DNA from: the human T2T-CHM13v2.0 reference genome, Homo sapiens | NCBI RefSeq assembly: GCF_009914755.1 | Contig: NC_060940.1 | Reading direction: 5' to 3' (one strand) | DNA length: 64,000 nucleotides | Part shown: positions 16,062 to 36,138 of the stretch, piece by piece | How positions within the stretch are numbered: position 1 is the stretch's first letter | Layout: every line of letters begins with the position of its first letter | The notes under the pieces: model-generated | Told to the model about the DNA's origin: nothing | Seen by the model: the letters and a program-made list of their open reading frames with translations, nothing else | The model's database searches: none | Made by a program: the position numbers and the translations under genes

Positions 16062-17836
16062 GCGGTCGCCTCCTGTCTGTCACCAAAGAGAGGAAAGAGA
16101 GCATTGTCATAAATTCTGGGCTTTGGGGACAACACAGAGGTTAGGAGAAACCTGTGGTCAGTGCTGATGGTGACTGTGGTCCCTACTGACTTGTAGAACA
16201 AACTCTCCACATTTCTGAGCAGAAAGTCTCAGTTCTGCTGTGTGATGGTCATTTCTCTCCTCTGACCCCGAGGTCCGTCCTTTTGACCTCTCACTGACTT
16301 GTGGGTCTCTGGGTCTGAGGTCAGAACTCAGAGCCCACTTCTCCAGGCTCAATACTTCAAAGGCAATCCCTCAAAAAGCCTTTGGCCAATCCTGAACTGA
16401 CCTTGCAAAGCTGAAGACAGCTCTGGGGCAGCACCGTCCAAAAGAAATAGAATGTGAGCCACCTGTGCAATTTACAATGTTCTAGTACCATTGCCAATAG
16501 TTTGCCAATCCTCTCCCTTGGAAAGAGATATGCGACTTGTTCTTCCCATTTGGTCTTTGTCCTGAAAACAACAAAACCCAGAAAGCAGCACCTCTGCAAG
16601 ATTTCCCTGTGTATCCTTGCATTTTTGCAACTACATGGCCAATTGACAGGGAAAAGATCCAATTGATAGAGTGTCTCAAATTGTTCCAACATATAGAACA
16701 TGAATAATAATTATTTTCGAACTCCTGTTCAAAGGAAAACTCACTGACATGAGACAAGTGACTTTTGGCAATTACCATCAACATTTTGTTATAAAAATGC
16801 TCATACATACAACATTGATTTGTTAACATTTTAATGAACATGACAACACATATCTACCCATCTTTCCATTCCTCTACCCATCCCTCAGCCCATCTTATTT
16901 TACATGTATTTCCAACTGAATTGGAGGCATCAACATACTTCCTGCTGAATAGTTTGGCAAGACTAACATTAACTAGAATTCAATATTTCTTTATAAAATT
17001 TTCTTCTAAAGAAGAGTGACATAGAAGAAAATATGCAAATCTTAAGTGTGAGTTTACTAACTTTGAAAAGTACCTACACCAGCATAACCCACCTCCTTTT
17101 CAAGATCTACACTATTATGTCACCACAGAAAGTGAACTCTCCCTCTTCCTAGCCAATCCCTTTCTCATAGTAGGTTAATTTTGCTTAGTCTGGAATTTCA
17201 CATATATAGATGCATGCCATGCCATAGGTACTCTTTTGTGTCTGCCTTATTCTGCTCAACACAATGTTTCTGAAATCATTCCCATTGTTGCACAGATCTC
17301 TAATTCAATCCTTTCCATTTTGGACTCAGCATATTCTGAGTTTAACCTGTTGAATGGCTATCTCTGTTTAATTCGCCATCTTGAAACATTTAAAATTAAG
17401 ATGTTTTCAAGAATATACAGTTAAATCCAAGGAATCAATGTAGGAATGTTATCAGAAGGTGTTGGAAGTTACTCAGGTGAAATCTTTGTCTTAATTCACG
17501 TAAGAGTCTAATGGAATTAATATCAAGAATCTTAGAGAAACCCCATACTATTCATGCCATTTTTATGACCTCTACATTGGTTATGTTTAAGCACTAAAAT
17601 TTGATACTTATTTCTGAATGAAATCATCTCTTTATTGTATTTTTTTTACTTATGCTGATCTTTAAATAGCAAAAATTCATGTACTCTAAGAAAGAAGTAT
17701 GATTCAGAGGGATTCTTTCATCATATGGTACATGACAAATAGATACAATGTCATATTCAATTTAAAACATAAGTAAATATAAGTAAATAAGTAAATAAAA
17801 GTAAATAACTTTAAAGAAAAGGTAATTACCTTATAC

Positions 17837-18063
17837 CTAGCTTGTCTAACCCACAGCTGACAGGCCACATGCAGCCCAGGACAGCTTTGAATGCAACCCA
17901 AAATGAATGTGTAAACTTTCTTAAAACATTATGAGTTTTTTGTGTGTTTCTTATAGCTCATCAGCTATTGATAGTGTTAGTGTATTTTATGTGTGGCCCA
18001 AGTTGAAGAAAATTCTCCATCTTCTAATATAGCCCAAGGAAGCCAAAAGATTGGACATCCCTG
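17837..18063 (-). mobile_element. MER30 (hAT) DNA transposon
   Basis: Terminus reads cagggatgtccaatcttttggcttcc on the minus strand. Confidence 0.7.
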
Positions 18064-18301
18064 CTTTAGACCAAGAAAAAAGACACACCACATTCACAAA
18101 GCCTAAGAAGACTACCAGCCATGCGAGAAACATGGGACTGGTAATTTCCAATCTTTCTTGAAACGGTGGAATCCCCTGGTGATATCTGAGGGTGCACTTA
18201 CTTCTTGGAGGAGGTTGAGGGTTTCTAAGGATAATTCTTTGTGACTGAAATATTGTAAATGTCATTGACCCTTCTCATTATTTCAACTGCTATTATTCCA
18301 G

Positions 18302-18433
18302 GTCATCAATTTTCTGCCTGGCCATCTTCATCCTGGGCCTGACTTTTTTTGAATTCCTTGGATGCTTAACATTGTTGTTGTGTTCCTGGGAATTATTAAA
18401 TTTGCCATTTTCTTCTGGAATACTAGCTTTGGT
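18302..18433 (+). pseudogene. NPIP exon-2-like relic (inverted relative to the other NPIP-like exons)
   Basis: ttccag|VINFLPGHLHPGPDFF*IPWMLNIVVVFLGIIKFAIFFWNTSFG|atgagt versus NPIPA [43 protein letters not shown] (from memory). Confidence 0.75.
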
Positions 18434-19009
18434 ATGAGTATACTGACTTCCTGTAGAGGTATACTTGTAATCATAAATAAGAAGAAATCATTTTAAACAA
18501 TTCATGGTTCTGGACTTCATTATGAATATTGGGTTTTACCAAAAAAATCAGAAAAAAATAATTTATTAGCAGAAGAATTATAAAAATAGCTGCCATTTAC
18601 ATTATGAAAATTAAATAGGTTTGCATTTGTTTAGTAGGATGCCAACAGAGCTTTTGGTCAAAAGTATTTTTTTTTTTTTACCTTTGTTCTCTTTATCCAT
18701 GAGGGCAAAGATCATGTAAAACAATTTTGAGCATATAGTAGTTGCTTAACTAATAGGCATTGGATGAGTTATTAATTTGTGATAATAGTTCTTTCCCCTT
18801 AAATCTGATTGTTTGTTATTATGTTAATTCTGAGTCCAGAAACACAAATTTTTTAAGTGTTGATTTCTTGGATTTTTTAATGTGCTATTGCGCTTATTTT
18901 AAAGGCTAGTAAAACTGATCTTCTAAACAATTGCTATTCTCCTAGTAAATGTTCCTTCAATGGTAATGGAAGCCATGTGCAGACAAGACACCCTGCAGCC
19001 CTTCAATAA

Positions 19010-24175: not shown

Positions 24176-25498
24176 TGGTCCATGGGTTTTCTTAACTATC
24201 AACCGCCTCTGGACAGGTAGGGCTCTAAGAAGCTACAAATGAGCTCTAAATCAGGGGTTCCCAGTACACATCAGAAAAAAGATCACTCATCCTGTAAACA
24301 GAGACTAAAATTTAAAATAGAAACAGCCATGGATTGGAAGAATATCAATAAACCCTGAAAAGAAACAGCACTGCTCCTTTTCTTCAAATCGTGTGGACAT
24401 TTAAAGTTCTGTACATTTATAGCTACTTTAACTTTCATATCTGTCCAGGTACTATCAAAATGTAAGAACAGAAATGGACATAAACTGACTAGAAGTACTG
24501 AGAAAAGGTAAGAGTGTCAGAAATTAACTGAAAAGTTTTAGGGTTACACCTAGAATGTTAGAAGAGTAAGATTACATGGAAATTTAATTTCCTAATGGAG
24601 TTATATTATATAGTCCACAATAAACAATTAAACAAAAAAATGAAGCTCCAAAAAATGTAAATAAATGCTTCTTTTCTTAAACCAGACCTCATGGTGCAAT
24701 ATTGATCTATGAAGACATAGCCAGAAAACGTCTGCTCTCATCAGCACATATAGCTCCCATTCTAAAATGTTATTGGTATTACTTTTCTCAAATGAAGGAA
24801 AAATAAAGCCTAGATGCTGACCGAAGGTGGAAGGGGAGCTGGTCCCTTTGCTTTCTAGGCTCCTCTTCTCAGTTAAAAGTAACCAAGATGTCAGAGTGGG
24901 GCAACGTCCACAGTCAGTGGATGATCCTGAGCTCTGCCATTCTCAGGGGACCATCGAAAAGACATTCAGCTAGGGCATCTGAGAAAAATAGGGTCCTGCC
25001 ACCAAGAGAGACACATGTTCTCTGTAGTAAGTGCTTAGAATTGCTTCCAGGAAATATAATTGTTACCCCACCTGAGCTCTCAACCCCAAAAGGAGAAGCA
25101 GGGTGTGTGGATTGTGCAGCAGAAGTGACTACCTTCACAGTGAGCTCCTACCTCTCCAGAAAGTGCTCTCTAGGCCCAGTTGTCCCTGGGCTGGCTCCTG
25201 ACTCTTGTGTATCTCCATGACTCTCTGCTTTTCCATCATTTCCCATCTGGAAGACAGAGAAAGAATTCACTTGAAGAAGAATTAAAACACCAAGTTCTTT
25301 ACTAGACACTCAAAGCTTCATCTGAAAACAAAAACATCCTTAAAAATGTCTATCACAATTACCTACCTGTGCTGCTTGTAGGCAGCCTTCCTCTCTGCCA
25401 TCTCCCTCTACAAGGCTTTTGCACAGAGCTGTGGGGAGAAAAATACATCCACGTGCTGACCTGGCAGACTATGCCCAAAAGCAAGGGGGAAAAACTGT

Positions 25499-25534
25499 CC
25501 AGTTGTCAAGGGCCTTTCTTATAGAAGGGACAAT
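25499..25534 (-). pseudogene. NPIP exon-7-like (36 nt)
   Basis: ttttcag|IVPSIRKALDNW versus IPPSARKALCNW; donor lost. Confidence 0.8.
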
Positions 25535-25644
25535 CTGAAAAAAACCAACACATGAGAAATTCTATGTTGAGAGAGTCTAACGGCCATGGCATCATCCACA
25601 TCAGCACCGAAGGAGCCTACAACTGTGGGGAGGAAGCTCCTTAC

Positions 25645-25705
25645 CTTGCGTCTGTAGTAGCTTTCTACTCACCCCCAAAGCTCTTGGGTGTCTTGAATTA
25701 TTTTC
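25645..25705 (-). pseudogene. NPIP exon-6-like
   Basis: KIIQDTQELWG*VESYYRRK|gtaagg versus KMFQRAQELRRRAEDYHKCK; acceptor reads tg. Confidence 0.75.
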
Positions 25706-26362
25706 CAATGGTTTAGAATCACTTTCATCAAATAAGCACCATTTCAGTATGATTTTAAATAATCTGCCATGTTTCTGTTATCCTCACAACTGCACCCTTA
25801 CACTATCTATACACAGAAGATGTATTTCACATGGTTTTCAAAGTACAGTATGATCAAAACTGTTGCTATAATGATTCTTCCTCTTTTACTTAATGCCTGC
25901 TGGGTTCTGAGTTCACATTGTCCTTACCCATTCTCATTCATCCTTCATTGGGCATCTTTGATTATAAAGCTCTAGTCTCCTTGTATTAATATCCTTGCCA
26001 TATTTCACAGAGTAGAAACGGCTGGGCACAGTCCATTTGAAAAAATGTGGTTGATCCTACAACACGCTTTTCTAAGAATGACGGCAACGGATACCACCCC
26101 TACAATGGCAGAAATGAACTGAGTTTCTACACAGTCTGACCCCATTGGGGTCAGATGTTTTGCTACTTCACATGTCTTGGTCACTGATAAATCTTAAGGT
26201 ATTTTGTTTTCTCTTGTGTGAATTCTCTCTTTCTCTAAATATGTCTTCTGACCATTTGTTTGTATTTCTGTGTTAACTGGGTCTAAACATTGTACAAAAG
26301 TTAAAAACAAAATACTCCAGTGGAAGTTTCCCATGTGGCTGGTGTTCAGTTTCTGAACTCAC

Positions 26363-26464
26363 TTGTAGGTGTGAATTTTTTCCATAACCCATTTCCCTTT
26401 TTCCTCCACCTCTGACAGCTGCCTCTCTTTTTCTGCTCACTCACATTCTTTCATTCTCAGCTTC
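26363..26464 (-). pseudogene. NPIP exon-5-like
   Basis: ctcag|(R)KLRMKECE*AEKERQLSEVEEKGKWVMEKIHTY|gtgagt versus [34 protein letters not shown]. Confidence 0.85.
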
Positions 26465-26688
26465 CTGAGATGAAAACGGAGAGAAATGCACACACATGAT
26501 CCACTTGCCCATGTGGGATTCTTTCTGCCATTCTGGCATCTGAAGGCCATGATTCAAAGGTCCCCCACTGCCTTCCCATACATGAAACAACTGATATTCA
26601 ACACTGGGGAGGAAGAATTGACACCTCCCATTGACAGACAGAAAGAATTTAAAAAAAAAAACAACACTCTGGCCTGTTAGCAAGTCAC

Positions 26689-26758
26689 CTGTAATTTCCA
26701 GCTCGTCTTTGTGTCTCCATAGTCCTATTCTTAAGTAAATAAGGACCATTAGAAGCTT
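26689..26758 (-). pseudogene. NPIP exon-4-like (short, divergent)
   Basis: catag|(E)ASNGPYLLKNRTMETQRRAGNY|gtgact, 70 nt, phase 1-2; weak match to LRRHVETKVRAK. Confidence 0.55.
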
Positions 26759-27135
26759 CTATGAGATGTGCTATGTGTACTTCTGGGGTCAGTCTTGTGC
26801 TTGACACACTGAAAGCTCATTTTAGTTCACTGTGGAAAATCAGATCTCACCAACTCATCACAACTAACTCCATCAAGATGGAGCAGGGGATCACTCTTCA
26901 TCTGACTCCTCCCATAGGAAGACCTGATTCTCATTTACAGGCTGATGCCAGAACCCAGACAATTAGCCTTTGAGAGATCCTTCCAGGACATGATGTCCTT
27001 AACCCTGCAGTTCACTACAGCATGTTTCCATGACTCAGGACTGGAACTCTTGTCATTGACCTGAAGGCAAGAAACTGTTCTCCTTTCCAGGGCAAACTCA
27101 TTTCCATACTATGGGGACTCCAACAGACAGCATAA

Positions 27136-27235
27136 CTTCCTGGCTCTGCTTGTTGGACCTCCAAGCTCTCTGCTGCAGATCTGTGGATCCATCATTTACA
27201 TTTCATGACTTTGAGACAGACTTGGGAAAAGACAT
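27136..27235 (-). pseudogene. NPIP exon-3-like
   Basis: ttcctag|[32 protein letters not shown], 100 nt, versus [33 protein letters not shown]; donor reads tt. Confidence 0.85.
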
Positions 27236-29309
27236 CTAGGAAATAACTGAAAAATGACATGAGAATACCTCACACCTGAACTGTACACTTCAACATTGTT
27301 AAGACGGCAATGGTCATGTTATAAATGTTTTATTATGAATATTTTACCACAGGTTAAAATGTTTAACAATTTGAAAAGGAAGTAATTATCTTCAGTTCTC
27401 TAAGTTCTAGAATTTGTAACATTTCACCCCCTGCTCCTTCCCGATCCGGAGCAGAGCATCTTATTCTTTCCCTGCTCTACTCAGGATTCACTTTCCCTTA
27501 TGTAACAAAAACATTGCAAATATTTTTTAAAATAATTACAAAACTTTACCTAGAAATCTGTAATTCAAATTAAAATGGAGATTAAAAATACAAACTCACA
27601 ATGGTCAGGAAGCCAAGATCTTTTTTTAAATATTTATAAATTTGCATTACACTATTTGTAATATGTCCAAAAATATGTCCACACTGTATGGAAGAATGGG
27701 AAAAATATAAGAAAAAAAGGCTTACGGTTATAGATGAAAATATTACATAAAGACATGTTTATATATACACAAAACTGAGAGAGGACAGCTGCTGTAATAA
27801 TAATACCTGGGTTATATTTCAACAAAATAAACACAGACTGTTGTTTAGCCCAAGTTTATAAAAACATTAACTTTTGAAAATTAATGTTCACTTTGCTGCT
27901 GAAACAGCTGCACTTCATGTCAGATTTTCAAAGTCCATAAAGATTTGCATAACATAGTCTTCCTGGAATTATAATTCAAACCGAGAGAATTGAAGTTAGT
28001 TAAAAACACAATACCAAGACACCAATAACAAGAGTTCCCCTTCATATTTTAGAGCATTGCACATAAAGAAAGCAATCAGTAGCAACCTTGGAAATCCATA
28101 TGGAAAGCAATAAAAACTTTCTGGGATGTATAGCCACTGCCACAAAAGGCACACATATTATTTTACAAACACTAGATTTATGAGTACTGGGGGAGAAAAT
28201 GAATACGAAATGTAATTCAGACCAACTGACATACCAAGACTCACTTTTGTGCAAACAAAACATCTCTAAAAAGCAGCCTCTGAGCTCTGCAGCACTTTCA
28301 TCTTCAGCCTCACAGTGGAGGTGAGTGCGGCCTGGGCTCCTGGGAAGGACACACTGTTTCTGAGTAGCCTCTGTCTGAAAGGGACCAGGAGCTCTGGGCA
28401 CAATGGTTAAAGATGTGGATCAAATGCACGAGAAGGACAAAGGCCATCTTTTCATTGACCAGGAAAACAACCCCCATCTTGGGCACTCTTGTCACATCTG
28501 ACAACTATCTGGATGCAGCTTATCAGTAGTGGGCTCCTACCTAGATTAGGTCCAAAGGGGCAAGGAAAGCTTAGGTTCTGACAGTCGACGGCCATGAGCA
28601 AGGGTGAAGGTGGAAAATGCAATGAGGAAAACTTATCCAAGTCTTCAAAGGTGAGGTAGGGAAAGAGAGTTTAACTGATCTATGAAAATGCAGCCAGGTA
28701 AGGAGAAAAAAATTCCAACAAAGATTATCAAGACATTTCCTTCTTCATAACCTCAAAAGAAACAACAAATTCTTCTTTGGTTGGAGGTACTCATGCGAGG
28801 TGATTCTGCCTTGATGCAGTGGTTGCTCCCCATCACTAGACTTTTCCAGATCCCTCTCTAAGAATCTGGTGCATGCCGGTCAGAACAAATACTCTCATCT
28901 CTATAAGGTGCCCTCTCCTGAGGGTAGTGGTGAGGCTTATAATGTGAGGGTGGAAACTTTCAAAGTAAAAACCTGTCATTTCTTTATGTTTGGACACTCA
29001 TAGGACTTTAAGACTCTTTCTGCTTTGGGTAAATCAATGATCTACACAAGACACATTTTACAAAACAAAGGTCAGTAGAGTTCTCATTCACATCCTGGTC
29101 ATGTCACTCCTAGTGACTCCCGCATTGCAAACATCCCAGCAGGATGCAACCCTTTCCTCTCCCATCTGATTGGCTTCTCAGGCTACCTTCACACCGATTG
29201 GACATAGACTCCCTGGAGGCAGCTCCCAAGAGGAGAACACATGGATGACTCCAAAGTTTCTAAACAAATCATCAAACCAGATGACACAAAACTCAAATGA
29301 CATTTCACT

Positions 29310-29590
29310 TTTTTGTTTTGTTTTGTTTGAGACAAGGTCTCACTCTGTCACCCAGGCTGGAGTGCAGTGGCACAATCTTGGCTCACTGCAGCCTCCACCT
29401 CCTGGGTCCAAGCGATCTGCCCACCTCAGCCTGGGACTACAGGCATGCCCCACCAGGCTAGACCAACTTTTTTTTTTTTTAATCTTTCATAGAGACGGGG
29501 TTTTGCTATGATGCTTAGGCTGGTCTTGAACTCCTGGACACAAGCGATCTGCCCACCTCGGCCCCCACAGTGTGTGAGGAGTACAGGCTG
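29310..29590 (-). mobile_element. Old Alu (AluJ-like)
   Basis: Diverged Alu motifs. Confidence 0.8.
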
Positions 29591-29659
29591 TGTAGTTTTA
29601 TGCCGCCTGACACTACCCAACAAAAAGGAAGAAACCCCATGGGTCCAGCATCTACTTAC

Positions 29660-29747
29660 ATGGGTGGGTTGATGGCTAGAAAACCCCTGCAGGAGGAGCC
29701 AAAACAGCAGCCACCACGCAGGTATGTCCTGGTCCTCTCAGGGCACC
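29660..29747 (-). pseudogene. NPIP-like signal-peptide exon with ATA at the start position
   Basis: Long pyrimidine tract, cag| acceptor, IPAWWLLFWLLLQGFSSHQPTH|gtaagt versus NPIPB15-type MRLRFWLLIWLLLGFISHQPTP. Confidence 0.8.
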
Positions 29748-30649
29748 CTGAGGTGGCCAGGACAGAGGTGGGAGTGGCTTAGGACTGGGGGAAGGAAGGG
29801 GATAGGGATGGGGGTGGGATTGCAGTTGAGGAGGGAGGGGGAGGGCAGGGAAAAGGAGGGAAGGGAAGGGAGGGCTGTTGGGCACCCAGAGCAGGAGGAA
29901 GACAAGGGGCTCTGGGAAAGGATCTGGTTCAAACTAAGTCCTCAAGCACCGGTGGGAGATTCAGCTACAGGTTAGAGAGAAAGGCGATCAGCTATCAGTG
30001 AAGCAGCAGGACACTTGGGGCAGGGGAGTGGGAGGCTCAGGAGCAGGACTCTGGTTTCCGCCAAACCTTCTCCTGTCTGGAAGCTGCCTTAGCAAATCCT
30101 GAGGCTTTATACTCCCTCTTCACAAATCCCCAGCCCGGTACTTGGTGCCTCACAGTGGACAATCCACAAGAAGCTCGTGTTCTTCCAAGGTCCCCTCCCC
30201 CCACCTGAACCCCCACCCCCAACCCAAGGACAAGTCCTCTCTGGAACCTTCGCAGACCTTCTGATTTCTGGGTGCCAGCCCACTCTGGCCCAGGGTAGGG
30301 TCCTGGGGGGCACACCTCTCTTTCTCTCTTGACTTCTAGATCTGCTAAGCGCCATGCAACACCGCCCTGTCTAAACATACCCACACAGGGTCCCAGGCTC
30401 AACCCTGTGCCCCTGTCCCCACAGTCACCAACCCTGGCCTCTCTGGCATCTCAGGGCCCAGGAACAGCCCTTCTGAAGGCCCTGGAAGGGGCACACACCC
30501 AGCCCTGGGTTTGGAACCTGGAACATATCCCCTTCCAAGAGAGCTCAGGAGGGCCAGGTCATGCCTGGGTCTGTTCTCTCCACTGCCTTAGGAGTGCCCT
30601 GTGGAGTGCCATCGCCGTGTGGTTGTCCTGTGGGCTGGGGTCTGGGACT

Positions 30650-31146
30650 GTGTGCATGTCTGGATGTGTTAATCTGCACGTATGCACCTGTGCGTCTGAG
30701 TATCTGTGAGTATGTCACCGTGTAGCTGTCTCTGGATAGCTCTGTTTTTCTCTATCTTTGTATGCATTTGTGTGTCTTTCTTCCTGAATGAGTGTGTGTT
30801 TGTTGTACAAATATGTGTGTTTGTGACTGTGTAATGTGTCTCTGGGCATGTATGCCCCTGTGAGAGTGTCTGTGTATGCCTGTGTTCTGTATCTGTGTGT
30901 GTTGTTTGGTGTGTGTGTGTATGTGTGTGTTGTGTGTGTGTGAATTCGCCTCTCCTTTGGGCATCCCTGATTGTGTCTCTATTTGTTTATGTTTCTCTTA
31001 ATGTCTGTGTTCTCTGTCTGTTTCCCTGCCTGTAGGTCTGTGACTGTGTGTGTGTGTGTGTGTGTGCATGCACGAGTGTCCATTGTGTGTGGGGTCTGCC
31101 CTGTGGGGCTGTGTCTCATGGCCTTGTGTATCTGTGGTCTCCTGGT

Positions 31147-31188
<42 letters not shown>

Positions 31189-31290
31189 GCCTGTCTGTGG
31201 GCCAAACTGCTGAGTGCCCAGGTGAAGCTGGGGCGGTTCTGTGCCTTTGTGTCTCTGTGCTTGTGGTGTCTATTTATTTACCTGTGAGTT
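30650..31290. repeat. Degenerate (TG)n-rich region with pure TG arrays
   Basis: Seen directly. Other TG/CA arrays lie at 2351-2383, 10925-11038 and 53455-53495. Confidence 0.9.
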
Positions 31291-32200
31291 CCTGGGTTTG
31301 TACACCTAAGAAATTGGCAGTCACAGAGGGCCCTCTGTGGGTGAGAAGGGGACAATATGTGCTCCTCTCATTCCCAGGCTAGGCCCTTTCTGCCCCTGCT
31401 CTTCTGAGCCTCTGTTGGCCCCCTGGTAGTTCCCTCTTAGGCCCCAAGGAGGGATGGAGAAAAGGGTCAGGTTACAGAATTCCAGGCCAAGGATGTGAGG
31501 AGGGCTCCAGATGCCTGGACAGGGTTACATTCAAAGAAGGAAAATTGTCTGTGGTCAAGGAATTCTGGACTACAGGGACCCTAGGCCCTGGGAGGGTGAA
31601 TGAGTGGGGTCCTCTGGCAAGGGCTGGGGGACAGAGTTCCTGGGTCACTTGGAAGATCTGATATGTAGGGTCCTACAGGGGAAAGCTGGAGGCAGGGCTC
31701 CTAGGCCCATGGCAGGGCTGCAGGAGTCCTGGGTCCCTAGAGGTTGGGGCTCTCACTCACACACACCATAGGTTGGGATGCATGTGCACATGGGCATTAT
31801 TGGGGGACACAAAGGCAGAAGCCCATTGGGCGGAAGATCATTGAGTGGAAGACCACTGGGTGGAAGCCCATTGGGTGGGGTGGCAGAGGTGGTCTGGCAG
31901 GCAAATGTAGTCCCCAAACCAAGGCTGACCACCCTGGACATCCGTCCTGCCCTGGCCTTGCTGGGGCCTCATCCAGACCATGGGCAGGTGCCTGGAGCCA
32001 CATGGGGCATCCCTCCTGTACCCCTGTGTCCTGGCTATTGAAGGGTGCTTAGGTAACCCTGAGATGCTGGTGCCAGGAGGGAGAATCTGGTCCCAAGTTA
32101 TCTCAGGTTAGAGATTAGGGAGAATTACAGAGGGAGGGCATTTAACATAGGTTAATTCCCTGAATAAATGCTCAACACAGGGTATTGTTGATATCAGTAT

Positions 32201-32206
32201 TTTATT
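32201..32206 (-). terminator. ACSM1: Likely ACSM1 polyadenylation signal AATAAA
   Basis: tttatt on the plus strand about 230 nt after the stop; an ATTAAA variant lies at 32278-32283. Confidence 0.65.
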
Positions 32207-32435
32207 ACTTGCGTTATGAGTGCTCACCTGGGAAATTCTAAAGATACAGAGGACTTGGAGGAAGCAGAGCAACTGAATTTAATTTAAAAGAAGGAAAACA
32301 TTGGAATCATGGCACTCCTGATACTTTCCCAAATCAACACTCTCAATGCCCCACCCTCGTCCTCACCATAGTGGGGAGACTAAAGTGGCCAGGGATTTGC
32401 CTTAGGTGTGCAGTGCGTTCTGAGTTCACTGCCGA

Positions 32436-32522
32436 TTACATCTGACCAGTCTCCTTTTTCCGAAGTTCCTTCCGTTCAATCTTGCCAGTGATGGTTTTTG
32501 GCAGCTCTGAGACAAACTCCAC
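32436..32522 (-). CDS. ACSM1: ACSM1 last coding exon
   Basis: cag|[28 protein letters not shown]; contains the catalytic-lysine motif LPKTxTGK. Confidence 0.95.
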
Positions 32523-33045
32523 CTGGTTGAGGATAAAGCAAATCCACAGTGATTGAGTCCTGCTGCCATTTCCTAACAATTCTCCACTCTCCTCCTCTGC
32601 CCCTCCACAGTCTCCCATGCAGGCTGACACCATATGGTGGCCTTAATGGAGTCCCCAAGTATTTCAGGTTCTCCCCCTGGCCCCTAGAAGGTGGATGTAC
32701 CCATGGGATTTGCTTTGACCCAGGAGATGTGAGTGGAAGTGAAGCATGTAACCTTGAGGCAAAAGAGTTGGGAGCCATTGAGACTGACCACCCTCTCCTT
32801 CATCTCTTAGAGCAGCTGACAGGTCCCATATGGAGGCTGCTCCTTTATTCTGGTGGCAGAATGAGGAGATGTGGAGGGCAGGGCCAAGGAGAGCCATGGA
32901 GGACATGAGGCATGAGCAGAAAAAGAGCCTTCAGTGTTGTAAACCTCCATTGTTTGGGGCTGTTTGTTACCTCCAGTGATACCTAGCCCGTCCTAGCAGG
33001 GAACGCTTCAGGGCCACCAGATCCCTTCCATCTGCCCTCACTCAC

Positions 33046-33165
33046 CTTCCTTGGGTACTTGTATGGGGCTGTCACTGACTTGACATGCTGCTGCAGTTCC
33101 TTGGTCAGCTGATCCTTGTCATGGGACAGGAACTGTGGGGTCAGGACAATAAAGGCCTTCACCAC
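33046..33165 (-). CDS. ACSM1: ACSM1 exon 13
   Basis: [40 protein letters not shown], 120 nt, cag|...|gtgagt. Confidence 0.95.
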
Positions 33166-33633
33166 CTGCAGAATGAAGTCATGGGCTCACAGTGAGTGCC
33201 AACCTACTCCATAGCTTAAAAAGTCAATGTTTATTGAATGAGTGGTAAAACAAGGTGACACTGAACCCTACAGTGTTTTGGAAAAGGAGAGGACCAGGTG
33301 TAAATCCCTGTGTTTCCAATTCCCACTCCATGCCTTGAAAAGTTATTTGACCTCTCCTTAACCTCAGTTTTCTTTTCTGTGAAATGGGGACAATAAAGCT
33401 TCCATTCTTCATTTGGTTTCTTTAAAGCTTCCATGAGATAATACATATAAAACATCCAGCTAGTTTACTTTTATTATTACTCCCGTCATCAATATTTTCA
33501 TCATCATTTTTACTGTTATTATATATGTAATTCAGTGCCAGAAACCCAATGGGCATTCCATAATTACTGGCAATTTATTATTTTTAGATTAGCAATGTTA
33601 TCCAAGTTTTATTGCACAAGGTCTCACATATAG

Positions 33634-34052
<419 letters not shown>

Positions 34053-34372
34053 TAGCTGGGTGATGTGGAGAGGTTACTTAACCTCCTCCTGCTTCTCTTT
34101 CCTCATCTATAAAAAGCATAAGTGTTCTTAGATTACTACATTGTGTGAGAGTTAAGTGATTTGGCATATATAAGTGCTCATTACATAGTATCTAGCATCC
34201 TTTTATTCAGAGCCACAGAGAGTCCACACTGTCCCCTGGTGCCATACCGTGTAAACGCACATGCACACTATGCCCTTCCACCAAGGCTGCACAGGTAAAG
34301 CCTGGATGTTTCCCCTGCACCTGCTTTCCTAGTGCCCACGCACAGACATGATGATCTCTGTGTTCTCCTCAC

Positions 34373-34472
34373 CTCCCCTCGAATCGGGTCTGGGCTGCCC
34401 ACCACGGCTGACTCCGCCACCGCTGGGTGCTCCACCAAAGCGCTTTCAACCTCTGCAGGCCCGATGCGATAC
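34373..34472 (-). CDS. ACSM1: ACSM1 exon 12
   Basis: [33 protein letters not shown], 100 nt, AG/GT. Confidence 0.95.
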
Positions 34473-35052
34473 CTGGAGGATGAAGGGTTCTGAGGCAGAT
34501 GCCAGGGCTGGGGTGAACCAAGTCCCCAGATCTCCTGCTTTGGAGTCACAGCTTCCTTTGGCACAGAGGGTGGAGGTCATAGGAAGCCAGGGACCCCTGA
34601 CTTGTCTGTGTCATGGGCCCAAAGTGTAAAGACCTGGACATTATAGGCTGAGAAATACAAGACTGCGGTGCTCCCGGCTTCTTGCCTCACTGCCTGTACT
34701 GATGGAGGACGGCTAATGTTTTGTCTCCTCAGAGCTTGGCCCAAGCAGCTTCCCCCAACACGAAATCTCTTGGAAGCCTCAAACTTGGTCTTAAACATTC
34801 ATGCAAATTCTGCATACTATTTCCCATTGTATCAGCAGGATTTTCGGCTTTTATTATATATACTTAAGGCTTACAACATGATGTTTTGATGTACATATAC
34901 ATAGTAACGCGATTAAAACACTCAAGCACACTAGCATATCCATCGTCTCACATAATTGCCTTTTTTTTCTTTTGTGGTAAGAACATAAAATCTACTCTTT
35001 GTGCAAATTTCCAGTACATCATGTTTTAGAAATTTAAAATAAAATCCCATCC

Positions 35053-35340
35053 AGGCTGGGCATGGTGGCTCACACCTGTAATTTTAGCACTGTGGGAGGC
35101 TGAAACAGGGGGATCAATGGAGGTCAGGAGTTCAAGACCAGGCTGGCCAAGATGGTGAAACCCCATCTCTACTAAAAGTATAAAAATTAGCTGGACATGC
35201 TCACTTGAAGCCAGGAAGCAGAGCTTGCAGTGAACCAAGATCAGGCCACTGCACTCCAGCCTGGGTGACAGTGGGAGACTCTGTCTCAGAAAAATAAAAT
35301 AAAATAAAATAAAATAAAAAATAAAATAAAAAAATAAAAA
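35053..35340 (+). mobile_element. Alu, internally deleted
   Basis: Alu motifs with (AAAAT)n tail. Confidence 0.85.
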
Positions 35341-36138
35341 TGCCATCAATTTCTCTAAAATATCCAAGGGAAATTGTTACTGTAGTGTAATGCGCCTTTT
35401 TAAAAATCATGTAGGGGTAGGGACAGGGACTCAGAGCCAGACTACCTCAGTTCAAATCTGGATTGCATCCTGTGCTATCTTTGAATCTTTAGGCAAATTT
35501 CCTTGCCGGTCAGTGACCCACTTTCCTCGTTAGTAAAATAGGGATAATAATCACATCTCCCATCCAGCTTTGAGAGGTGGGTTATATAAAGCATTAAGGA
35601 CAGTGTTTTCACATAGTAAGTACTCCAGGTTAGCTAAATAGTTACAGTAAATAATATATTTATACTAATAAATAATTTTATAATAATAGATTTATTATGC
35701 TCATAGATGTATAACAAATATATTCATAATAATAAAAATAAACAATAGCTAAAGGTTAGCTATTATTATTACTATGTTTGTCCTGTGACATTTGGTGCTG
35801 CATTAGAGGGGCACAAACATGAAATAGGCTCCCTGAACCTATGGAGACCAAGACAGAGTCTCCCTTCTCAATTCCACTCCCCCCACCCCACTGTAAATTG
35901 CACAGTGTCTTATTATGGCTCCTCTTCCAGACCCTCTTGAATTTCATTTTGCTTGATTCTTCTGCGTGCAGAGAAGGTTCGGGAGGTATACTGAAGCCTG
36001 GAATCAGGGCACCATAGACACGGCTCTATTCAGATTTAGGCTGAAATTTCACCAATGCGTGAAAAAATGTCTAGGTAAGCAAAATTCCGTGAGGCATGTG
36101 ACGGCAACAACAGCCAGCCCAGCATCAGCCACACCTAC

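What the first reader, a model, noticed from the sequence alone, without database searches (positions are those of the whole stretch)
33046..33165. ACSM1 penultimate exon is the likely source of the NPIPB N-terminal exon
Seen: [40 protein letters not shown], a 120-nt exon with a phase-0 donor. From memory, NPIPB3/4/5 begin [40 protein letters not shown] and continue directly into VINTLADH. Here the donor exon sits only about 3.3 kb upstream, on the same strand, of the NPIP-like signal exon. Inference: co-duplication of this block let an enzyme exon become a first coding exon via a GTG>ATG change. The ACSM1-NPIPB similarity may already be published; the physical adjacency explains it.
Basis: partly seen in the sequence, partly recalled or inferred. 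Interest (0 to 1): 0.8.

Follow-up and report, generated by a model that had tools for sequence, protein, structure and literature searches.

The report
ACSM1 exon that seeded NPIP's start
The second-to-last exon of the enzyme gene ACSM1 is indeed the parent of the first coding exon of many NPIP genes, which is already in print; what seems new is that a decayed NPIP-like gene lies directly behind ACSM1, so both were probably copied together as one block.

Summary
Window 33046-33165 (-) is ACSM1 exon 13: 120 nt, AG acceptor, GT donor, phase 0 at both ends, translating exactly as quoted.

All 15 of 15 NPIP-type loci that carry a copy have CAG|GTG changed to CAA|ATG. They keep an open 40-codon frame and the GTGAGT donor.

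The copy is closer to ACSM1 than to any other ACSM gene, and only ACSM1 introns align to its flanks.

The core claim is already published. A 2019 paper says the exon was duplicated from an ACSM family member. Cell Genomics 2025 names the twelfth exon of ACSM1.

Window 35.4 to 24.3 kb is collinear with the whole NPIP/LCR16a unit at 66-87% identity. It contains an NPIP-like pseudogene absent from the gene table: a signal-type first exon without its ATG, and three exons matching Pfam NPIP with stop codons, one of them moved and inverted.

The exon was therefore most likely inherited within one ancient block, not captured separately. Cross-species synteny could not be tested.

The parts
33046..33165 (-). 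ACSM1 exon 13 of 14 (40 codons, phase 0 at both ends). It is the parent-type copy of the NPIP 'MVKL' first coding exon.
   Evidence: and the hub gene table. Pfam AMP-binding_C E 0.001, 20.4 bits, profile positions 29-62 of 76, below the 24.5-bit cut-off because it is a fragment. 28 genomic matches to the peptide.
32223..35406 (-). ACSM1 3' part (end of intron 11, exons 12, 13 and 14, 3'UTR) that is homologous to the 5' part of NPIP/LCR16a units. Two Alu-like repeats (about 35054-35348 and 33652-33974) are absent from the copies.
   Evidence: Identity to NPIP loci by block: exon 12 block 66%, exon 13 block 74-75%, exon 14 block 82%. K2P distances 0.38, 0.29 and 0.20.
32999..33000 (-). Point in ACSM1 intron 13 where every copy examined either carries about 1 kb more or ends. 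This is most simply a deletion in the present ACSM1 locus.
   Evidence: Searches show the break at 32999/33000 in all loci; the extra segment is shared and collinear between the NPIPB-type, chr10:81.10 and chr10:96.05 copies (74-84%). Its first 70-110 bp are also in the chr22 and chr11:3.43 copies.
30272..32300 (-). Stretch 3' of ACSM1 ('mid', with a GT/CA-rich run at about 30.7-31.3 kb). It aligns only to the chr10:80.39/81.10 copies.
   Evidence: 78% over 2121 bp. One search shows HTHT/CVCV-type translations there.
29262..30271 (-). Block A: homologue of the NPIP region that holds the MRVR/MRLR signal-peptide-type first coding exon.
   Evidence: 45 matches, NPIP loci at 70-80%. (70-75% to NPIP loci and chr10:96.05, 78% to chr11:3.39).
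29660..29725 (-). Signal-type exon relic: 22 codons (IPAWWLLFWLLLQGFSSHQPTH), with ATA where the 5 other copies examined have ATG. GTAAGT donor at 29659-29654.
   Evidence: In the other copies, 5 of 5 have ATG, an open 66- or 75-nt frame and a GTGAGT donor.
27509..29262 (-). Block 'extra': shared with the chr10:81.10 and chr11:3.39 copies but absent from LCR16a units.
   Evidence: 88% over 1057 bp and 86% over 1771 bp..
24302..27499 (-). Block C: body and 3' end of the NPIP-like unit. LCR16a homology ends at 25367, chr10:81.10 homology at 24698 and chrX:50.37 homology at 24302.
   Evidence: 78-83% identity. K2P 0.15-0.19 to NPIP loci.
27101..27238 (-). NPIP-like exon relic (Pfam NPIP positions 43-83) with two stop codons.
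   Evidence: E 1.7e-5, 35.2 bits. One search gives the translation and flanks.
25366..25515 (-). NPIP-like exon relic (Pfam NPIP positions 161-207) with one TAG.
   Evidence: E 3.2e-13. (E 1.5e-17, 64.5 bits, read with X at the stop).
16499..18697 (+). Block B. In other copies it lies between 'extra' and C. Here it is removed from the 10-base interval 27509/27499 and sits inverted about 9 kb away.
   Evidence: 80-87% identity, opposite orientation to blocks A and C. The chr11:3.39 copy joins window 27509 to 16499. The chr10:81.10 and NPIP copies have the order A/extra-B-C.
18302..18457 (+). NPIP-like 'exon 2' relic (VINFLPGH..., Pfam NPIP positions 1-51), with a ccag acceptor and one TGA.
   Evidence: E 2.2e-13.. 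(E 1.1e-17, 65 bits, read with X at the stop).

Best explanation
The window holds the parent-type locus of the NPIP/LCR16a unit. ACSM1's last three exons are followed, on the same strand, by a decayed NPIP-like gene.

An ancient duplication copied one block that ran from ACSM1 intron 11 through the NPIP-like gene. In the copy, ACSM1 exon 13 was cut off from its upstream exons.

Two neighbouring substitutions then removed its acceptor (CAG to CAA) and turned its first codon GTG into ATG, in a good start context (A at -3, G at +4). The exon kept its phase-0 GTGAGT donor, so it can splice in frame to NPIP exon 2, whose acceptor is also phase 0. This gives the 40-residue MVKL N-terminus.

The signal-peptide-type MRVR/MRLR exon came along in the same block.

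Shown here: the homology, its extent and order, the two substitutions, the open frames, and the pseudogene state of the copy beside ACSM1.

Inferred: the direction for the NPIP-like part, a single block event, and its age (tens of millions of years).

Taken from print, not tested here: that MVKL is used as a translation start.
For: Exon and splice sites.

Exon copies: 15 of 15 NPIP-type loci have caa|ATG, 40 open codons and a gtgagt donor (alignment).

Nearest ACSM gene: the copy is closest to ACSM1 at exon level. It sits in the ACSM1 clade with support 92/88, with ACSM2A/B outside. Its flanks align only to ACSM1 introns.

Collinear blocks between the window and NPIP loci: exon 12, exon 13, exon 14, A and C in the same order and orientation, plus B inverted. 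Homology reaches upstream to window 35406.

The chr10:81.10 copy is contiguous with the window from exon 13 through exon 14, 'mid', 'extra', B and C to 24698, though it lacks block A. ACSM1's 3' end and an NPIP-like gene were therefore neighbours in the source.

Pfam NPIP (PF06409) matches three places inside the window, all above the 27.5-bit cut-off.

Signal-type exon homologue at 29725-29660.

Only the window holds ACSM1's annotated coding exons. The copies examined end in ACSM1 intron 11, or further upstream in the chr22 copy.

All copies share two segments that the window lacks: about 1 kb at 33000 and 1.2-1.8 kb at 30271/30272. This fits later deletions in the source locus.

Published support for the exon relationship and for MVKL as a start: (passages read).
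Against: Divergence from the window is uneven along the unit. K2P is 0.38 for the exon 12 block, 0.29 for exon 13, 0.20 for exon 14, 0.30 for A and 0.15-0.19 for B and C. A single event with a uniform rate would give similar values. No CpG island explains this.

The two shared extra segments fit equally well if all copies descend from one intermediate copy rather than directly from this locus.

The window's NPIP-like gene is rearranged (B moved and inverted) and lacks the exon for Pfam positions 57-125. It is therefore not a simple template of today's NPIP.

The literature places the ancestral primate LCR16a at 16p13.1, not here. Cell Genomics 2025 calls the ACSM1 exon an 'independent duplication'.

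No other species could be examined, so the polarity of the NPIP-like part is not rooted.

NPIP-like copies at chrX:50.37 Mb, chr1 and chr7 gave no match to the ACSM1 exon or to block A in the genome-wide searches. The family may therefore be older than its stay beside ACSM1.
Confidence: 0.8

Rival explanations
1. Independent capture, as the 2025 paper words it. A small piece of ACSM1 carrying the exon was duplicated on its own into an already existing LCR16a/NPIP unit. The NPIP-like sequence behind ACSM1 is an unrelated old NPIP copy that happens to lie there.
For: [quoted passage not shown] The ACSM1-derived blocks are more diverged from the window (K2P 0.29-0.38) than the NPIP-like blocks B and C (0.15-0.19), as if they had different histories. 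By my comparison of the place lists, only 15 of the roughly 27 LCR16a copies seen with the Pfam model carry the exon.
Against: Order and orientation are the same on both sides of the supposed junction in three kinds of copy: LCR16a, chr10:81.10 and chr10:96.05. chr10:81.10 aligns to the window without a break from exon 13 across ACSM1's 3' flank into the NPIP-like part, apart from block A, which it lacks. The old non-LCR16a copies at chr10:96.05 and chr11:3.43 already share derived substitutions with the NPIP exon. Chance adjacency of the two sources in the right order and strand is unlikely. LCR16a copies without the exon are truncated at their 5' edge (and the NPIPA-type map).
Confidence: 0.1
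2. Reverse or secondary placement. An LCR16a-type unit that already contained the ACSM1-like pieces was inserted beside ACSM1, or converted ACSM1's 3' flank. On this view the window copy is derived, not parental.
For: LCR16a is known to move and to carry flanks with it. Every other copy shares two segments that the window lacks. The exon 14 block is unusually similar: 87-90% over its first 300 bp in 13 loci, which could be a conversion tract.
Against: Exons 12-14 in the window are the working end of an old, conserved gene; its paralogues keep the same exon. The homology runs through them without a second copy in the window. An insertion would leave duplicated ACSM1 pieces or a junction, and none was seen in whole-window comparisons. 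Identity of 66-87% is far below that of recent LCR16a moves.
Confidence: 0.05
3. Chance or convergent similarity between a short enzyme exon and the NPIP N-terminus.
For: Pfam no longer recognises the NPIP 40-residue exon as AMP-binding_C: no family at E up to 10.
Against: Nucleotide identity is 84-87% over 120 nt, with flanking intron homology at E of 1e-83 to 1e-94 and kilobases of collinear alignment.
Confidence: 0

Closest known systems
NPIP 'MVKL' start exon derived from ACSM1 (Cell Genomics 2025, PMC12790995, passages read; preprint 10.1101/2025.02.04.636496, section 7 read)
   Same: Same exon pair and same direction. It is a 40-residue exon covering half of the AMP-binding C-terminal domain, and it is used by NPIPB paralogues and by NPIPA2/A3. 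I found it at the two 16p13.1 loci, 14.75 and 15.39 Mb.
   Different: The paper speaks of an 'independent duplication' of the exon. In the passages I read it does not link the signal-peptide exon or the NPIP body to ACSM1's 3' flank. Here the exon is one part of about 10 kb of collinear homology that includes an NPIP-like pseudogene behind ACSM1. Its Figure S3 is an image I could not see, and its supplements were not opened.
NAR Genomics and Bioinformatics 2019 (PMC6924539), Figure 3 legend (passage read)
   Same: [quoted passage not shown]
   Different: The passage names no particular ACSM gene and gives no flanking homology or locus map.
LCR16a core duplicon (Genome Biology 2020, PMC7419210, passages read)
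   Same: The window's blocks A, B and C are homologous to the roughly 20-kb unit that carries NPIP.
   Different: The paper places the ancestral primate LCR16a at 16p13.1 and lists ACSM2A/ACSM5 only as a flanking duplicon. The copy behind ACSM1 is 66-87% identical, which is below the 90% used for segmental duplications (that threshold is recalled). It is rearranged and non-coding.
Chimeric genes born from partial segmental duplication, the general class. The PKD1-NPIP fusions are described; SRGAP2C and NOTCH2NL are named there as functional partial gene duplications.
   Same: A truncated copy of one gene supplies a 5' coding exon to a neighbour in the duplicated block.
   Different: Here the donor exon lost its acceptor and gained its own ATG. 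It therefore acts as a first coding exon rather than as an internal fusion exon.

Membership tests
[quoted passage not shown] | Annotated coding exon of ACSM1 with canonical splice sites and the correct phase | tested here: met
   Hub gene table, and (AG acceptor, GT donor, 120 nt).
[quoted passage not shown] | Match to Pfam PF13193 AMP-binding_C | tested here: inconclusive
   E 0.001, 20.4 bits, below the 24.5-bit cut-off. The exon covers only profile positions 29-62 of 76.
[quoted passage not shown] | The same exon is conserved in the other ACSM genes | tested here: met
   open 40-codon homologues, 65-88% identical at protein level, at the places I take to be ACSM2A, ACSM2B, ACSM5, ACSM3 and ACSM4. 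Those names are assigned from position and recall.
NPIP MVKL exon as a derived copy of ACSM1 exon 13 | Closer to ACSM1 than to any other ACSM paralogue | tested here: met
   86.7% to ACSM1, against 81.7, 79.2, 62.5, 59.2 and 54.2% to the others; tree places it in the ACSM1 clade with support 92/88.
NPIP MVKL exon as a derived copy of ACSM1 exon 13 | Flanks homologous to ACSM1 introns 12 and 13 | tested here: met
   Against ACSM2A/B only the exon and Alu-like repeats align.
NPIP MVKL exon as a derived copy of ACSM1 exon 13 | Start codon gained, donor and frame kept | tested here: met
   15 of 15 loci.
NPIP MVKL exon as a derived copy of ACSM1 exon 13 | Used as a translation start in transcripts | not testable with these tools
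   Only from print: 11 of the 55 most common isoforms begin with MVKL.
NPIP family (Pfam PF06409) member in the window | Profile match above the curated cut-off | tested here: met
   61.2, 60.7 and 35.2 bits against a 27.5-bit cut-off; 65 and 64.5 bits.
NPIP family (Pfam PF06409) member in the window | Intact gene: start codon, open exons, exons in order | tested here: not met
   ATA in place of ATG. Stop codons in all three exon relics. The exon 2 block is inverted. The exon for profile positions 57-125 is missing. It is a pseudogene.
LCR16a segmental duplication copy | High identity to other copies. Segmental duplications are usually defined at 90% or more over 1 kb or more (threshold recalled). 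| tested here: not met
   66-87% by block. This is an old paralogue, not a recent LCR16a copy.

The most novel reading that the evidence does not exclude
The stretch directly 3' of ACSM1 at 16p12.3 is the birthplace, or the last surviving remnant of the birthplace, of the LCR16a core duplicon. One ancient block, ACSM1 intron 11 to the end of a signal-peptide-bearing proto-NPIP gene, seeded all NPIP copies. Both alternative NPIP starts (MVKL from an enzyme exon, MRVR/MRLR from the proto-gene's own first exon) were then present from the outset and not acquired later. The copies would also preserve ACSM1 intron and flank sequence that ACSM1 itself has since lost.
Probability: 0.6. Interest if true: 0.55.

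Novelty: already known. Interest (0 to 1): 0.35.

Why it matters
NPIP is one of the fastest-evolving human and ape gene families, and it rides the duplicon blamed for much of chromosome 16's instability.

The exon's ACSM1 origin is already in print, so that part adds nothing new.

If confirmed, the block-level picture would change how that origin is told. The enzyme exon and the signal-peptide exon would have arrived together with the gene body from a locus beside ACSM1. That gives a concrete, testable progenitor for LCR16a that is deeper than the 16p13.1 'ancestral' site. It also adds an NPIP-like pseudogene that the gene table for this window does not list.

Tried and rejected
- A six-frame motif search of the window for VINT, TLADH and similar found no NPIP exon 2. 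The homologue is too diverged (VINFLPGH) and was found only with the Pfam profile.
- I tested a CpG-island or promoter explanation for the higher divergence of the exon 12, exon 13 and A blocks. CpG observed/expected is 0.08-0.34 in the window and in NPIP copies, so there is no island. Rejected.
- Pfam on the NPIP 40-residue exon gave no family at E up to 10, so profile search alone would miss the relationship.
Stops follow after 23 and 10 codons.
- I wanted the NPIP-like copies on chr1 and chr7 and more of chrX, to see whether they carry ACSM1 pieces. Only 6 kb of chrX was obtained, so that question stays open.
- Five literature searches found no paper describing an NPIP-like sequence beside ACSM1. 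Subscription journals and supplements were not searched.

Full report
**1. Observation**

Window 33046-33165 on the minus strand reads ...ttctgcag|GTGGTGAAG...AGGAAG|gtgagt. The hub table lists it as coding exon 13 of 14 of ACSM1. The last coding part is 87 nt including the stop, so this 120-nt exon begins and ends in phase 0.

**2. Relation to NPIP**

No sequence from memory was used. The window's own assembly was searched instead.

- An 801-base query around the exon gave 41 matches (40 of 53 candidates scored).
- 15 loci (14 on chr16, 1 on chr18) matched the exon plus intron 12 flank at 74-76%.
- 13 of these also matched the first 300 bp of intron 13 at 87-90%, about 2 kb further on.
- The peptide search gave 28 matches. 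These include the same 15 loci at 77-82% over residues 2-40.

In all 15 of 15 loci the acceptor CAG has become CAA, the first codon GTG has become ATG, 40 codons stay open, and the donor GTGAGT is kept. The other seven differ at one or two residues.

The labels 'NPIPA-type' and 'NPIPB-type' in this report are mine. They follow chromosomal position and the start-sequence names in the 2025 paper.

**3. Which ACSM gene is the source**

Over the 120 nt, the NPIPB-type copy is 86.7% identical to ACSM1. It is 81.7% and 79.2% identical to the two ACSM2 genes, and 54-63% identical to the ACSM5, ACSM3 and ACSM4 homologues.

A maximum-likelihood tree of 16 copies puts the NPIP copies with ACSM1. A chr22 copy and the chr10 copies join them (support 92/88), and ACSM2A/B fall outside.

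The NPIP flanks align to ACSM1 introns 12 and 13 (556 bp at 75%, 453 bp at 89%). Against ACSM2A/B only the exon (133-134 bp) and Alu-like repeats align.

**4. Already in print**

[quoted passage not shown] It also says MVKL starts 11 of the 55 most common isoforms, including NPIPA2/A3 (preprint section 7 read; journal version PMC12790995, passages read).
- I take their 'twelfth' to be the hub table's exon 13 counted differently. This is inference.

The core of the finding is thus known.

**5. The adjacency claim**

A 421-base query around window 29.7 kb matched the NPIP loci at 70-80% (45 matches). Local BLAST of the whole window against fetched loci shows collinear blocks on the same strand:

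| Block | Window coordinates | Identity to NPIP loci |
|---|---|---|
| exon 12 | 34827-33993 | 66% |
| exon 13 | 33546-32999 | 74-75% |
| exon 14 | 33000-32223 | 82% |
| A | 30271-29262 | 70-72% |
| C | 27499-25367 | 79-82% |

A more sensitive search extends the upstream end to 35406, skipping an Alu-like repeat that the copies lack.

A further block, B (17028-18697, extending to 16499 in the chr11 copy), is 80-87% identical. In NPIP it lies between A and C. In the window it is inverted and sits about 9 kb away.

**6. An NPIP-like pseudogene behind ACSM1**

The Pfam NPIP model, run over the genome, matched three places inside the window, all above its 27.5-bit cut-off (150 of 162 candidates scored):

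- 18302-18457 (+), profile positions 1-51, one TGA.
- 27101-27238 (-), positions 43-83, two stops.
- 25366-25515 (-), positions 161-207, one TAG.

Two of them, read with X at the stop, score E about 1e-17.

The signal-type exon homologue is at 29725-29660. It has 22 codons and a GTAAGT donor, with ATA where the 5 other copies examined have ATG. Those 5 copies also keep an open frame and a GTGAGT donor. They read MRVR... or MRLR..., the start sequences named in the 2025 paper.

The exon for profile positions 57-125 is missing from the window. The hub table lists no NPIP-type gene here, only a plus-strand lncRNA.

**7. Other old copies and what they say about the source**

- chr10:81.10 Mb, and its inverted twin at 80.39 Mb, align to the window from exon 13 through exon 14, the 2-kb 3' flank ('mid'), 'extra', B and C down to 24698. 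The order is exon 13, exon 14, mid, extra, B, C, all in one orientation. Block A is absent.
- chr11:3.39 Mb joins window 27509 directly to 16499. Block B was therefore removed from the 10-base interval 27509/27499 of the window.
- chr10:96.05 Mb and chr11:3.43 Mb share derived substitutions with the NPIP exon but keep GTG.
- chr22:17.72 Mb copies window 38511-33020 (exons 11-13) at 82-90%.
- chrX:50.37 Mb holds block C only, as far as I could fetch.

Every copy that carries ACSM1 pieces ends within ACSM1. Only the window has the rest of the gene, so the ACSM1-adjacent arrangement is the source type.

All copies share about 1 kb at window 33000, and 1.2-1.8 kb at window 30271/30272, that the window lacks. 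The simplest reading is two later deletions here. Descent of all copies from one intermediate copy would give the same pattern.

**8. Mechanism, with what is shown and what is inferred**

- Shown: the homology map, the two substitutions, the preserved donor and phase, the open frames in the copies, and the decay of the copy beside ACSM1.
- Inferred: one block duplication cut ACSM1 between exons 11 and 12. That left exon 13 without a usable upstream partner. Loss of the acceptor plus the new ATG made it a first coding exon that splices in phase 0 to NPIP exon 2.
- From print only: use of MVKL in transcripts.
- Age: K2P distances of 0.15-0.38 imply tens of millions of years. The published dog NPIP orthologue ('at least 70 million years') fits this. 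I could not date the event myself.

**9. Results against this reading**

- Divergence is uneven: 0.38 for the exon 12 block, 0.29 for exon 13, 0.20 for exon 14, 0.30 for A, and 0.15-0.19 for B and C. No CpG island accounts for it.
- Three-way branch lengths, which I worked out by hand, put most of the excess on the NPIP branch towards the 5' end. Different histories for the two halves cannot be excluded.
- The literature places the primate ancestral LCR16a at 16p13.1.
- NPIP-like copies on chrX, chr1 and chr7 gave no match to the ACSM1 exon or to block A.
- No outgroup genome was available.

**10. Verdict**

The finding is real and correctly interpreted, but its headline is already published. 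The added value is the block-level map and the NPIP-like pseudogene, absent from the gene table, directly 3' of ACSM1. Together these argue that the enzyme exon was inherited with the gene rather than captured separately.

Five literature searches found no description of this. Figure S3 of the 2025 paper and all supplements were not seen and might bear on it.

Noticed in passing
window 16499-18697 (+) and 27499-27509: Block B of the NPIP-like unit, which holds the exon 2 relic, has been taken out of a 10-base interval (27509/27499). It now lies inverted about 9 kb away, next to ACSM5P1. Block C between them keeps its orientation. Two nested inversions would do this, but the mechanism is unexplained.
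   Followed up: partly
window 32999/33000 and 30271/30272: All other copies carry about 1 kb (at 33000) and 1.2-1.8 kb (at 30271/2) that this locus lacks, and these segments are homologous among the copies. Either ACSM1's intron 13 and 3' flank lost them, or all copies descend from one intermediate copy.
   Followed up: partly
G000:C10:81099001-81122000 (L026, L049, L050) and its inverted twin near C10:80.38-80.40 Mb (L042): An NPIP-like unit with ACSM1 exon 13/14 relics upstream. Two of its three best-scoring NPIP exon matches are free of stop codons; the third (profile 69-127) has one TAA. Its exon 2 scores higher against Pfam NPIP (77.5 bits) than the chr16 NPIP genes do (64-69 bits). I do not know whether it is annotated or expressed.
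   Followed up: partly
G000:C22:17719001-17729000 (L029): A copy of ACSM1 intron 10 to exon 13 (window 38511-33020) at 82-90%. Its exon 13 frame is open and 95% identical at protein level. It ends about 25 bp past the exon.
   Followed up: no
G000:C23:50371501-50377500 (L059); also C1:221.88 Mb and C7:65.6 Mb: Further old NPIP-like copies outside chr16. The chrX copy is about 80% identical to block C of the window, of chr10 and of LCR16a alike, which suggests an old burst of copying.
   Followed up: partly
NPIPB-type loci, e.g. G000:C16:21350001-21360000 (L021): The relic of ACSM1's last coding exon in two NPIPB-type copies has the same length as the ACSM1 exon and ends at the same TAA. By my own reading of the printed DNA it has no earlier stop. 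It may be chance at 28 codons.
   Followed up: no
window about 33652-33974 and 35054-35348: Two Alu-like repeats in ACSM1 introns 12 and 11 are absent from the chr22 and NPIP copies. They therefore entered after those duplications and could help date them.
   Followed up: no
window 30700-31300: A long GT/CA-rich run 3' of ACSM1, seen as HTHT/CVCV-type translations in all frames. It lies inside the 'mid' stretch that only the chr10 copies share.
   Followed up: no
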